Shown here in pieces: positions 34,701 to 50,228 of a DNA stretch of 64,000 nucleotides. The translations under genes and the position numbers were made by a program. Source of the DNA: Scenedesmus sp. PABB004 (lineage: Eukaryota); contig JABVCE010000007.1 in NCBI GenBank assembly GCA_014905635.1, positions 496,001-560,000 of the forward strand, written 5' to 3'. The notes under the pieces were generated by a model. The model was not told the origin of the DNA. It was given only the letters and a program-made list of their open reading frames with translations, and made no database searches. The first letter of the stretch is position 1. Every line of letters begins with the position of its first letter.

Positions 34701-34967
34701 GCCGCGCGCACCAGCAGAGACGAAGACGATGCTCATGGGGTTGCTGGTCTTCTCCACGAAGCCGTTGCCGGCGAGGGCGCGCACCACCAGCGCCGTGCGG
34801 GCGCGGCGCACCGCGGCCGCCTGGCGCAGCGCGGGGCCCGCCAGCGCCGCCGGGACGGCCGCGGGGCCGCGCACGGCCGCGCGCGACGCGCGCTGGGGCA
34901 CGCCGGCCATCGCCTTGGGCGCTGACGCGCGCGCCGAGCGCGCGGCGGTGTTGCTCTGCAGCTGCAT
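31702..34967 (-). CDS. GBSSI: Granule-bound starch synthase I (GT5)
   Basis: Transit peptide [11 protein letters not shown]..., [94 protein letters not shown]. Confidence 0.97.
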
Positions 34968-35819
34968 GGCGGCGGTGCGGTGTGGGACGCGCGGTGCGGG
35001 ACCGGACGACCGCAGTGGCGGGCGGCGGGGCGGCATCGCGCGCAAGGCGCGGCCAGCGACACCGAGCAAGGGCGACTCAAACCTACCCCGACCTAAATGA
35101 CGCCTCCGCTCTGGAGCGCGCCGCGGAGCCGCGCCGACCATCAAGCGGTCGCACGACCGCGGCGCTGCCGGCGCCGGCGGGCCGCGCGCTCGCGGGCGTT
35201 GCTGGTGATATGGAAGCGGCGCGCGCGATATTTGGGCGGCCGCCGCGCCGCGGCGCGCCCCTGCGCGTGCGCGCGCAGCCTGCGCGCGCGGCGGGCCTGC
35301 CGCAGTCGGCGGGAGCGCGGTCAGCAGCAGGTCAAAGCCGGCGCGTTCGGCGGCGGCGCAAGCCCGCGCGCCCTTGAGCAGCTCTCATCCGCGGCCGGTT
35401 TGAGACACGATCCGTCGCGCCCGCTGCCAGCACGCAGCCGCCGGCTCGCCGCCGCGTGAGCTGGTGCGAGCCACAGGCGGCCGCGGCGCCACGCGTGTGG
35501 CGTGGGCACGCTGCCGCCGCGCGCGACCTCGGCTTCGCTTGCCAGCAGCAGCGTCCCGTCCACAGGGAGCGGCGCGGAAGTTCTGGTGGCATATGTGCCG
35601 AGCATCCGCGGCTTACTCAGCGGCCGCTCCCGGTGATCACCGTCGCACGGGCCGCGGCGCGGCGCGCCGTTCAGCACTGCGCGTTCTGTGCGCGGCACGG
35701 ACTCTTCTGCGTGCTCAACGCCCCGGGAGGGCCCTCGTGCGCGCCAAGCCGCCGGTCGCGCGCCCCTGTTTGACGCGGCGCCCCGGCTCCGACCGGCCGC
35801 AATGAAGGCCTTCACGATC
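34901..35819. repeat. Inverted duplication copy A (~920 bp): GBSS first ~20 codons, intergenic promoter region and first 6 codons (MKAFTI) of the toxin-like gene
   Basis: Reverse complement matches 49305-50228 along its length, with a handful of substitutions and small indels. Confidence 0.96.
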
Positions 35820-35970
35820 TGTCAGGGCTGCCTGACAGCCGTGCTGCACATCTGAATGACCCGCGCTCCCAGCGCCGAGGTTGCCGAGCGGGGCCTGGCA
35901 CGCGGGCGCGCCGCGCTTGCGCAGCGCGGGCCCTGGGCGCGCCGCACGCCGGTGCCCGTTTCTCAGGGCC

Positions 35971-48900: not shown

Positions 48901-49322
48901 AGGGTCGTGGCGGGGGCGGGTGTGTGGCGGTGTCACTCGGGCGCCACGGCGCACGCCTGGAGCGCGCGGTGCCGCTGAGAACGCGCACCTCGGCCGCCCT
49001 CATACCGAGCGTAGGCCTTGATCAGGTTCTCGACCGCCTGCGAGCGGCATCGGTGGCGGGCATCTCAGACTGCGCAGCGCAGCGCAGCGCAGCCGCTGCC
49101 GCGCACTGCGGGCATCGCCCCGCCCCCGCTGCGCCGGCTTTCACGTGCGACACTCGGTCCCCGCGAGTCCCGCCGCACGAGGCCGCGTGCGATGCGGCCG
49201 GCCGGCGGTGCTCGGGGAGTGATCGCTTTGCCGCTCACCGTCAGGGGGTTGGGCGGGTCCGCCTGGCCGGCCGCCGACGCAGCGGCCGCGAGGACCAAAA
49301 CGAGGATCGTGAAGGCCTTCAT
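44831..49322 (-). CDS. Secreted protein with two tandem aerolysin/ETX-MTX2-like beta-pore-forming domains (15 exons, roughly 830 aa)
   Basis: Signal peptide MKAFTILVLVLAAAASAAG. All 14 introns join with consistent phase. Each half has Ser/Thr-rich strands flanking an amphipathic hairpin (e.g. TESKTNTWNFQFKAGFKIKASASFFGIGPSAEYETENTVDWGYSFSDGSSTTTT). The gene model is well supported; the family call is by pattern only. Confidence 0.78.
45398..45503. repeat. Intronic (GGGC)n tetranucleotide microsatellite, ~26 units
   Basis: Direct reading; inside an intron of the toxin-like gene. Confidence 0.95.
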
Positions 49323-50228
49323 TGCGGCCGGTCGGAGCCGGGGCGCCGCGTCAAACAGGGCCGCGCGACCGGCGGCTTGGCGCGCAGGAGGGCCCGCCCG
49401 GGGCGTTGAGCACACCCGAGAGTCCGTGCCGCGCACAGAACGCGCAGTGCTGAACGGCGCGCCGCGCCGCGGCCCGTGCGACGGTGATCACCGGGAGCGG
49501 CCGCTGAGTAAGCCGCGGATGCTCGGCACATATGCCACCAGAACTTCCGCGCCGCTCCCTGTGGACGGGACGCTGCTGCTGGCAAGCGAAGCCGAGGTCG
49601 CGCGCGGCGGCAGCGTGCCCACGCCACACACGCGTGGCGCCGCGGCCGCCTGTGGCTCGCACCAGCTCACGCGGCGGCGAGCCGGCGGCTGCGTGCTGGC
49701 AGCGGGCGCGACGGGATCGTGTCTCAAACCGGCCGCGGATGAGAGCTGCTCGAGGGCGCGCGGGCTTGCGCCGCCGCCGAACGCGCCGGCTTTGACCTGC
49801 TGCTGACCGCGCTCCCGCCGACTGCGGCAGGCCCGCCGCGCGCGCAGGCTGCGCGCGCACGCGCAGGGGCGCGCCGCGGCGCGGCGGCCGCCCAAATATC
49901 GCGCGCGCCGCTTCCATATCACCAGCAACGCCCGCGAGCGCGCGGCCCGCCGGCGCCGGCAGCGCCGCGGTCGTGCGACCGCTTGATGGTCGGCGCGGCT
50001 CCGCGGCGCGCTCCAGAGCGGAGGCGTCATTTAGGTCGGGGTAGGTTTGAGTCGCCCTTGCTCGGTGTCGCTGGCCGCGCCTTGCGCGCGATGCCGCCCC
50101 GCCGCCCGCCACTGCGGTCGTCCGGTCCCGCACCGCGCGTCCCACACCGCACCGCCGCCATGCAGCTGCAGAGCAACACCGCCGCGCGCTCGGCGCGCGC
50201 GTCAGCGCCCAAGGCGATGGGCCGGCGC
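49305..50228. repeat. Inverted duplication copy B: true start of the toxin-like gene (minus) and a truncated GBSS 5' end (plus, ATG at 50160)
   Basis: Reverse complement of 34901-35819; encodes [20 protein letters not shown], identical to the GBSS N-terminus. Confidence 0.96.

What the first reader, a model, noticed from the sequence alone, without database searches (positions are those of the whole stretch)
34901..50228. 13.5 kb block flanked by ~920 bp inverted duplication: staggered-break inversion that copied a bidirectional promoter
Seen: 34901-35819 is the reverse complement of 49305-50228, with scattered differences (e.g. cccttgagc/ccctcgagc, ctcttctgcgtg/ctctcgggtgtg, acgcgtgtggcg/acgcgtgtgtggcg). 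The repeat has the GBSS ATG at one end and the toxin-like ATG at the other. In copy A GBSS continues intact and the toxin start is a stub. In copy B the toxin gene continues intact and GBSS is the stub. Flipping 35820-49304 rejoins copy A's MKAFTI to LVLVLAAA. Established: inverted duplications at both breakpoints mark inversions formed from staggered breaks. Inference: the ancestral order was GBSS<-promoter->toxin...DnaJ,TL20.3, and both genes survived because each kept a promoter copy. The repeats could still recombine, so the block (DnaJ, TML, hypothetical, toxin) may be invertible or polymorphic.
Basis: partly seen in the sequence, partly recalled or inferred. Interest (0 to 1): 0.8.

Follow-up and report, generated by a model that had tools for sequence, protein, structure and literature searches.

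The report
Algal inversion that duplicated a promoter
In a green alga, a 13.5 kb stretch of four genes was flipped and the shared control region between two genes was copied to both ends, a known way for inversions to form that looks common on this chromosome and may have given a neighbouring photosynthesis gene a new promoter.

Summary
The repeat is real: 34901-35819 and 49305-50227 are inverted copies, 98.7% identical over 923 columns, with two full copies in the 40 Mb genome. The block between them is inverted. In Tetradesmus obliquus the order is DnaJ, TML, GBSS, with TML between the other two, as flipping back predicts. A metagenome contig agrees by strand. This fits the duplication-generating (staggered-break) inversions described in Drosophila. 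It is also common here: 7 such local inverted pairs in 664 kb of the same contig. Three additions: (1) copy B's GBSS start reads in frame into TL20.3, which keeps only 185 bp of its own upstream DNA, so TL20.3 may now run on the GBSS promoter (untested, no RNA); (2) rejoining the two outer break ends completes an 11-bp hairpin, and one junction has 7 nt of microhomology; (3) 7 of 8 substitutions cluster in 58 bp. In outgroups DnaJ's neighbour is an FAD oxidase gene, not TL20.3, so that spacer broke twice or the event was more complex. Present-day flipping could not be tested. Known kind, modest interest.

The parts
31702..34967 (-). Granule-bound starch synthase gene, intact, with introns; ATG at 34967 lies inside copy A
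   Evidence: Pfam Glyco_transf_5 and Glycos_transf_1; tblastn with the T. obliquus ortholog P0380
34901..35819 (+). Copy A of the duplicated segment: about 20 GBSS codons, 834-bp divergent intergenic region, first 18 nt of the toxin-like gene
   Evidence: two full copies in the genome
35706..35763 (.). Cluster holding 7 of the 8 substitutions between the copies
   Evidence: binomial p 0.006 to 4e-5 depending on how events are counted
35802..35855 (+). Stub frame of 17 residues from the duplicated toxin-like start, running into DnaJ 3' flank
35820..35841 (.). New junction A|DnaJ flank; a 7-bp inverted repeat with a 4-nt loop starts at 35820 and becomes an 11-bp stem when 35820 is joined to 50221
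35971..37840 (-). DnaJ (Hsp40) gene; stop codon about 150 bp from the junction
   Evidence: Pfam DnaJ, DnaJ_CXXCXGXG, DnaJ_C
38059..40717 (+). TML-like MHD-domain gene, head to head with DnaJ
41045..44450 (+). Gene of unknown function; limits approximate
   Evidence: ORFs; no Pfam hit; no homolog search run
44831..49322 (-). Intact intron-rich gene with a hydrophobic N-terminus, aerolysin/ETX-MTX2-like (a lead); at least 6 paralogs elsewhere in the genome
   Evidence: atlas scores 0.93-0.95 for a paralog exon; weak Pfam CEL_III_C, E 0.075; paralogs on C24, C20 and four on C8
49305..50227 (-). Copy B of the duplicated segment; continuous with the toxin-like gene, carries the GBSS start as a stub
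50160..50405 (+). 82-codon open frame from the GBSS stub ATG, in frame with the TL20.3 ATG at 50406; rich in Ala, Pro, Ser, Arg, Thr with 2 acidic residues
   Evidence: ORF 49986-50798
50221..50227 (.). New junction B|TL20.3 flank; 7 nt shared with GBSS at the break, preceded by one extra G
   Evidence: chance of at least 7 nt shared between random positions 0.5%
50406..51691 (+). TL20.3 thylakoid-lumen pentapeptide-repeat gene, coding sequence intact; 185 bp of its own upstream DNA remain
   Evidence: Pfam Pentapeptide

Best explanation
A single recent inversion that duplicated one breakpoint region. Before it, the order was GBSS(-), divergent promoter region, toxin-like(+), unknown gene, TML(-), DnaJ(+), TL20.3(+). 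The left break was staggered by about 915 bp: one cut fell 18 nt into the toxin-like gene and the other about 60 nt into GBSS. This could be offset nicks on one chromatid, offset breaks on sister chromatids, or an equivalent template switch. The right break was clean and fell in an 11-bp hairpin within the 335-bp DnaJ-TL20.3 spacer. The ends were rejoined crosswise, one through about 7 nt of microhomology. GBSS and the toxin-like gene each kept a full upstream region. The spare half of copy B now faces TL20.3 with an in-frame start. Shown: the duplication, its uniqueness, the inverted order, the junction sequences and the frame. Inferred: one event, the role of the hairpin, microhomology-mediated joining, and any promoter activity.
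For: Two full copies only. Both gene starts lie in one contiguous repeat. T. obliquus tags DnaJ 014214, TML 014215, GBSS 014216 (second haplotype 013938, 013939-40, 013941; a third assembly has TML SZX71377 next to GBSS SZX71378) put TML between GBSS and DnaJ, which is the flipped-back order. In contig L063 TML lies on the same strand as a downstream membrane-protein gene whose best match in 264 kb is at 26173-26499; in the window they are on opposite strands, and flipping back restores the match. Joining 35820 to 50221 loses and gains no base and completes an 11-bp stem; 3.5% of positions start with the needed 4 nt, and 11 of 3000 random joins give such a stem. The size fits the 46 bp to 1.9 kb range, and one-sided duplication was the commoner case, 12 of 18 (PMC1885836 passages). 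Clustered mutations beside a microhomology-repaired break have been seen once in Chlamydomonas (PMC9977147 passage).
Against: No outgroup shows DnaJ next to TL20.3. DnaJ is fused to an FAD-oxidase gene in T. obliquus and NREL 46B-D3 models and faces one in L063; here that gene lies 87 kb to the left. The model therefore needs an older large inversion broken in the same spacer. The hairpin was noticed after the fact, six join positions were tried, and 11-bp stems are common in this DNA (77 listings with overlaps in 264 kb). The hairpin bases and the microhomology are the same bases. The outgroups lack the toxin-like gene at this place, and locus tags give order but not strand. The L063 marker gene is 50% identical and could be a paralog. 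No read spanning a junction was seen.
Confidence: 0.62

Rival explanations
1. Two steps. The 915-bp segment was first copied in inverted orientation into a break in the DnaJ-TL20.3 spacer. Ordinary recombination between the two copies then flipped the block and may still do so. In this reading the assembly shows one of two isomers.
For: It gives the same final sequence and junctions. About 470 bp at the GBSS end are identical while the other end carries a cluster, which could reflect exchange between copies. An older pair on the contig shows a patchwork of 3-7 versus 33-45 differences per tenth, compatible with conversion.
Against: It needs two rare events instead of one. No target-site duplication at 35820|50221. 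Macrohomology was not found at inversion breakpoints without transposons in Chlamydomonas mutation lines (PMC9977147 passage, cut off at its end).
Confidence: 0.17
2. One complex three-break event, or the small inversion followed by a large one. The roughly 85 kb segment carrying GBSS was moved and inverted next to DnaJ, with the promoter duplicated at its staggered end. DnaJ and TL20.3 were never neighbours.
For: Relative to the FAD-oxidase gene (C67:443590-444643, +) the DnaJ-TML pair has the strand arrangement seen in L063. About 20 tags separate GBSS and TL20.3 in T. obliquus, similar to the gene count expected in 85 kb. It needs no reuse of a breakpoint.
Against: It leaves the 11-bp hairpin completion to chance. 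No duplication signature of the DnaJ flank (35820-36000) was found near the FAD gene beyond 13-16-nt noise; the listing for the TL20.3 flank was cut. Gene order is heavily shuffled among these algae, so a reused spacer is not unlikely.
Confidence: 0.13
3. Assembly artefact: a haplotype switch or chimeric reads created a second copy.
For: The two internal indels fall in a C run and a GT run, typical consensus-error sites. In runs X1 and X2 the toxin-linked copy has copy A's base at 49361, so some A/B differences resemble allelic variation. No raw reads were available.
Against: Both new junctions must exist in the DNA, and they are reciprocal to the base. The copies differ by 8 substitutions. 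Seven such pairs range from 81% to 98.7% identity, an age spread that artefacts would not give. Outgroups confirm the inversion.
Confidence: 0.05
4. The repeats are the ends of a mobile element or of a recombinase-driven switch.
For: Long inverted ends flank a cargo that includes a gene family with at least 7 dispersed members.
Against: Two copies only. The repeat is made of host gene starts. No transposase or recombinase among 20 unspliced ORFs, no Rfam hit. The C24 paralog shares only about 70-120 bp upstream of its ATG.
Confidence: 0.03

Closest known systems
Inversion-mediated inverted duplications from staggered breaks (Ranz et al. 2007, PMC1885836; passages read)
   Same: Inverted copies of originally unique sequence at both breakpoints. 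Only one breakpoint region duplicated (12 of 18 cases there). Size within 46 bp to 1.9 kb. Partial gene copies. Polarity readable from the duplication. Breakpoint reuse.
   Different: Green alga rather than Drosophila. A 13.5 kb block rather than a chromosome-scale one. Copies 98.7% identical rather than about 88%. The duplicated piece is a whole divergent promoter region with both gene starts.
D. mojavensis inversions 2q, 2h, 2r, 2s with gene or promoter changes at breakpoints (Guillen and Ruiz 2012, PMC3355041; passages read)
   Same: Staggered-break duplications at breakpoints (2q, 2h). Regulatory sequence carried across or rebuilt at a breakpoint (Hsp68, CG10375).
   Different: There the promoter change at CG10375 involves a transposon footprint and the Hsp68 break separates gene duplicates. 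Here the duplicated promoter itself lands upstream of a third gene with an in-frame start. Expression is untested here.
De novo structural mutations in Chlamydomonas reinhardtii (Lopez-Cortegano et al. 2023, PMC9977147; passages read)
   Same: Green algal inversions, including a 5.2 kb one. One microhomology-repaired deletion flanked by clustered substitutions and indels.
   Different: Most inversions there involve Crypton or Replitron elements. The term 'duplications at' did not occur in the text, and no transposon is seen at these breakpoints.
Flip-flop isomers between long inverted repeats, such as chloroplast inverted repeats (recalled, no call)
   Same: Recombination between A and B would invert the block without breaking any of the six genes.
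   Different: No evidence of both orientations. The repeats are under 1 kb and diverging.

Membership tests
Staggered-break inversion with inverted duplication | Inverted duplication at both ends of the block | tested here: met
Staggered-break inversion with inverted duplication | Duplicated sequence is non-repetitive (not a transposon) | tested here: met
   two full copies among 10 matches in 40 Mb; made of gene starts and intergenic DNA; no Rfam hit
Staggered-break inversion with inverted duplication | Block is inverted relative to an outgroup | tested here: met
   T. obliquus tag order DnaJ, TML, GBSS in two haplotypes; strand relation in L063
Staggered-break inversion with inverted duplication | Outgroup carries the segment once, joining the two genes it overlaps | tested here: inconclusive
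   T. obliquus has no gene between TML and GBSS; a 22-nt probe found 0 metagenome matches; near-identical runs were too shallow
Staggered-break inversion with inverted duplication | Second breakpoint rejoins to an ancestral adjacency | tested here: inconclusive
   join completes an 11-bp stem, but three outgroups have an FAD-oxidase gene next to DnaJ
Staggered-break inversion with inverted duplication | Duplication and inversion arose in one event by end joining | not testable with these tools
   7-nt microhomology at one junction is compatible, but insertion plus recombination gives the same sequence
Invertible (flip-flop) segment | Both orientations present in a population | not testable with these tools
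   only short assembled contigs of three metagenome runs were available
Invertible (flip-flop) segment | Dedicated recombinase or short specific sites | tested here: not met
   none among 20 unspliced ORFs scanned; one gene in the block remains unidentified
DNA transposon with terminal inverted repeats | Multiple copies, transposase, target-site duplication | tested here: not met
Aerolysin/ETX-MTX2 pore-forming proteins (toxin-like gene) | Family profile match above cut-off | tested here: not met
   best Pfam CEL_III_C 13.7 bits against cut-off 27; no hit for the window's own exons
Aerolysin/ETX-MTX2 pore-forming proteins (toxin-like gene) | Aerolysin-like beta fold | tested here: inconclusive
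   atlas feature hits 0.93-0.95 to ETX_MTX2/aerolysin clusters with recognition 2024, below the 2300 guide; window exon gave no hit; model pLDDT 28; no relevant PDB sequence hit

The most novel reading that the evidence does not exclude
Small inversions that duplicate gene 5' regions are a main engine of gene-order change in this compact algal genome, at about one recognisable case per 95 kb and so some hundreds genome-wide. Copying the promoter lets breaks in tight spacers survive, and the spare promoter halves rewire neighbours. Here TL20.3 would now be transcribed from the GBSS promoter as an in-frame fusion with an 82-residue transit-peptide-like extension, coupling a thylakoid-lumen protein to starch-synthesis regulation in this strain.
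Probability: 0.22. Interest if true: 0.58.

Novelty: new member of a known kind. Interest (0 to 1): 0.33.

Why it matters
As a single event it is an unusually clean, young example of a known inversion mechanism, with junctions readable to the base. My literature searches listed no green-algal case, although the library lacks most subscription papers. It becomes more interesting in two ways. If TL20.3 now uses the GBSS promoter, this is promoter capture in progress next to a starch gene of biotechnological interest. If the other pairs on the contig are inversions of the same type, this genome offers hundreds of dated examples for studying how gene order is shuffled in compact genomes.

Tried and rejected
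Reads: one search listed 3 DNA runs from 2 studies, all assembled contigs holding 6-13% of the words; no RNA holder was listed. Laying them on 46100-52200 showed no listed piece bridging either end of copy B by 31 nt, with 459 pieces and 523 loose ends not displayed. This says nothing for or against the duplication or its orientation in those strains. A 22-nt probe from the repeat found 0 metagenome matches. My first reading of the locus tags, that the present GBSS-DnaJ adjacency is ancestral, was rejected once TML proved to lie between them. Chlamydomonas gene names between Cre17.g721500 and g721700 could not be recovered from two papers' supplements (some files not searched), and that g721500 is the GBSS gene is recalled. 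GBSS and TL20.3 tags are 1-26 apart in five volvocalean genomes, which shows linkage only. The TGTAA polyadenylation signal occurs twice in 64 kb, so it could not be used to judge DnaJ's 3' end. The in-frame fusion is not rare by chance: one frame in three, and 49% of shuffles stay open, about 16% in all. Structure prediction of a toxin-like paralog exon without alignment failed (pLDDT 28), so no fold search was run. A Pfam-guided genome search missed the FAD-oxidase ortholog; a search with the ortholog's own sequence found it.
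Full report
Setting. The window is G000:C67:496001-560000, from a 40 Mb eukaryotic assembly in 80 contigs, about 79% G+C. Its proteins place it among Scenedesmaceae-like green algae: a TL20.3 exon is 89% identical to Tetradesmus obliquus and 85% to Raphidocelis. 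I cite the genome only by handle.

Observation. The inverted duplication is as described: 34901-35819 against 50227-49305, 98.7% over 923 columns, 13,485 nt apart. Unbroken identity ends at 34907/50220 on the GBSS side and at 35819/49305 on the other. The repeat holds the GBSS ATG and about 20 codons at one end and the first 18 nt of the toxin-like gene at the other. In A, GBSS continues and the toxin-like frame stops after 17 residues. In B, the toxin-like gene continues and GBSS is the stub. A genome search found the two full copies, an 84-bp match to a paralog's 5' end on C24 and seven matches of 34-71 bp. It is therefore not a dispersed element. Pfam on 20 unspliced ORFs and Rfam on 34000-52000 showed no transposase, recombinase or RNA family.

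Is the block inverted? Locus tags serve as a synteny test. In T. obliquus haplotype OEZ86, DnaJ is 014214, TML 014215, GBSS 014216 and TL20.3 014236. In OEZ85 they are 013938, 013939-40, 013941 and 013961. A third assembly has TML SZX71377 beside GBSS SZX71378. TML thus lies between GBSS and DnaJ, which is the flipped-back order, whereas the window has DnaJ in the middle. In Scenedesmus NREL 46B-D3, GBSS (KAF6254237) and DnaJ (KAF6254239) are separated by one protein that I did not identify. One metagenome contig with TML was recovered, 1 of 318 candidate stretches (L063). It reads FAD oxidase(+), DnaJ(-), TML(+), then a membrane-protein gene(+) whose best match in 264 kb lies at window 26173-26499(-), 50% identical. 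TML and that gene share a strand in L063, differ in the window and agree after flipping back. The inversion and its direction are supported by two independent lineages. Tags give no strand, and the L063 marker could be a paralog.

DnaJ's downstream neighbour is not TL20.3. Gene models of T. obliquus and NREL 46B-D3 run from DnaJ into an FAD-binding oxidase, and L063 has that gene tail to tail with DnaJ. In G000 it sits at C67:443590-444643, 87 kb to the left. T. obliquus has no gene between TML and GBSS, so the toxin-like and unknown genes are not at this place there. Either an older large inversion had already brought DnaJ next to TL20.3 and the same spacer broke again, or the recent event was more complex.

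Junctions. A 7-bp inverted repeat with a 4-nt loop begins exactly at 35820. Joining 35820 to 50221, the first base after identity ends in B, adds four matching bases and gives a perfect 11-bp stem. Of all positions in 264 kb, 3.5% begin with the needed four bases, and 11 of 3000 random joins give such a stem. I noticed this after the fact and tried six offsets, and 11-bp stems are common here, so it is modest evidence, roughly 1 in 15 to 30, that these ends were neighbours. At the B junction, 50221-50227 repeats seven bases of GBSS at the break; at least 7 shared nt occurs in 0.5% of random pairs. One extra G precedes them. The simplest reading is a break in the hairpin, joining by microhomology, and a later or concurrent one-base gain. 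These are the same bases as the hairpin, so the two observations are not independent. The A junction shares one base at most.

Divergence pattern. Seven of eight substitutions lie in 35706-35763, while 34907-35374 has none; p is 0.006 to 4e-5 depending on how events are counted. The C24 paralog agrees with B at two diagnostic sites, read by eye. Contigs of runs X1 and X2 that continue into the toxin-like gene have A's base at 49361. X1, X2 and X3 all have a third base at 49417, and no difference from B is listed at 49387 or 49396, with 28 rows not shown. The X1 and X2 pieces differ by about 4.5% here against about 1% elsewhere and may be alleles or another paralog. Most cluster changes therefore look derived in A, with some standing variation. 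Error-prone repair near the break has a precedent in Chlamydomonas (PMC9977147, passage). Conversion of the rest of the repeat, or constraint on B's GBSS-facing half, are alternatives. This remains unexplained. Outside the cluster the copies differ by one substitution and two indels in about 800 bp, comparable to the distance to X3 (1 difference in 526 bases over three pieces), so the event may be strain-specific (inference).

Effect on neighbours. The break left DnaJ 150 bp after its stop and TL20.3 185 bp before its ATG. TL20.3 orthologs start at the residue matching 50406. The GBSS stub ATG at 50160 is in frame with it and has no stop, giving an 82-residue extension with transit-peptide-like composition. 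If B's GBSS-facing promoter fires, TL20.3 is made as a fusion under GBSS control. The frame alone is weak evidence, about 16% by chance. It depends on the extra G; the alternative frame stops at 50263. No RNA run was listed, so this is a hypothesis. Recombination between A and B would flip the block without breaking any gene and without restoring the single-copy state.

How common. Self-comparison of 664 kb (C67:196001-860000) gave 7 inverted pairs of at least 100 bp and 80% identity, all 1.3-13.5 kb apart, at 81-98.7% identity. Five of the seven, including this one, were checked against the whole genome and have two strong copies; one was checked with its first 358 bp only, and one has two weak extra matches. 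Three of the others lie on or just upstream of gene 5' regions (a GDPD gene, histone H2A, a CCCH zinc-finger gene), and 121 nearby ORFs gave no transposase hit. I did not show that those blocks are inverted. This one is the longest-spaced and most similar of the set, but not exceptional in kind.

The toxin-like gene. It has at least six paralogs: C24, C20 and four on C8. A 161-residue exon of the C24 paralog scores 0.93-0.95 against ETX_MTX2/aerolysin clusters, with recognition below the guide value, and gives a weak CEL_III_C match. The window's shorter exon gave nothing and the model was unusable. 'Aerolysin-like' is a fair lead and is not established.

Comparison with what is known. Ranz et al. 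found inverted duplications at 17 of 29 Drosophila inversions and proposed isochromatid or chromatid staggered breaks, noting that the two give the same pattern and that breakpoints are reused (PMC1885836, passages). Guillen and Ruiz describe such inversions with altered genes and promoters (PMC3355041, passages). A preprint on diploid S. obliquus reports inversions between haplotypes with a median of 3,672 bp but, in the passages seen, not their breakpoint anatomy (10.1101/2022.11.30.518549; its supplements were not seen). Searches listed no green-algal case; I saw listings and abstract starts only for the papers not named above.

Verdict. Real, correctly read in its core, a new member of a known kind and frequent on this contig. 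The open points of value are promoter capture by TL20.3 and the density of such events. Interest 0.33.

Noticed in passing
G000:C67:315643-316340 and 322134-322831 (L104, L105): Two-copy inverted pair, 702 bp, 97.9%, 5.8 kb apart; the right copy covers the 5' region of a GDPD gene and an LRR gene lies inside. Probably a second young event of the same kind.
   Followed up: partly
G000:C67:581327-582550 and 585643-586543 (L055): Inverted pair at 89-93% with an extra direct copy, upstream of a CCCH zinc-finger gene; two copies genome-wide.
   Followed up: partly
G000:C67:378892-379405 and 385215-385720 (L111): Inverted pair at 90% just upstream of a histone H2A gene.
   Followed up: partly
G000:C67:360937-362486 and 375242-376821 (L109, L110): 1.6 kb inverted pair at 81% with patches of near identity (3-7 versus 33-45 differences per tenth), possibly gene conversion or conserved exons.
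   Followed up: partly
G000:C67:410378-410514 and 411788-411924; 393123-393756 and 411151-411782: 137-bp inverted pair at 97.8% around 1.3 kb, part of which is also duplicated 18 kb away; could be a small mobile element.
   Followed up: no
G000:C24:1726075-1730046, C20:238106-241916, C8:31042-46585 and 84812-88490: At least six paralogs of the aerolysin-like gene, three in tandem on C8; the C24 copy lacks introns present in the window copy.
   Followed up: partly
window 1-64000: The chlorophyte polyadenylation motif TGTAA (recalled) occurs once per strand in 64 kb, so this alga probably uses another signal.
   Followed up: no
window 57988-60468 (-): ORF beginning like a 14-3-3 protein (name recalled, not searched).
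   Followed up: no
window 52000-54800: Long low-complexity Ala/Glu/Pro repeat region with strong AT skew of about -0.5.
   Followed up: no
window 45390-45505 and 38680-38760: GGGC microsatellite of about 110 bp in a toxin-like gene intron and a TG-rich repeat in a TML intron.
   Followed up: no
proteins P0257/P0033, P0252/P0029, P0272/P0028: GBSS and TL20.3 have neighbouring locus tags in Gonium (adjacent), Volvox and Pleodorina, so their linkage is old in Chlorophyceae.
   Followed up: partly
G000:C67:196001-860000: Many local direct duplications as well (0.1-9.5 kb, 80-99%), all within about 18 kb of each other.
   Followed up: no
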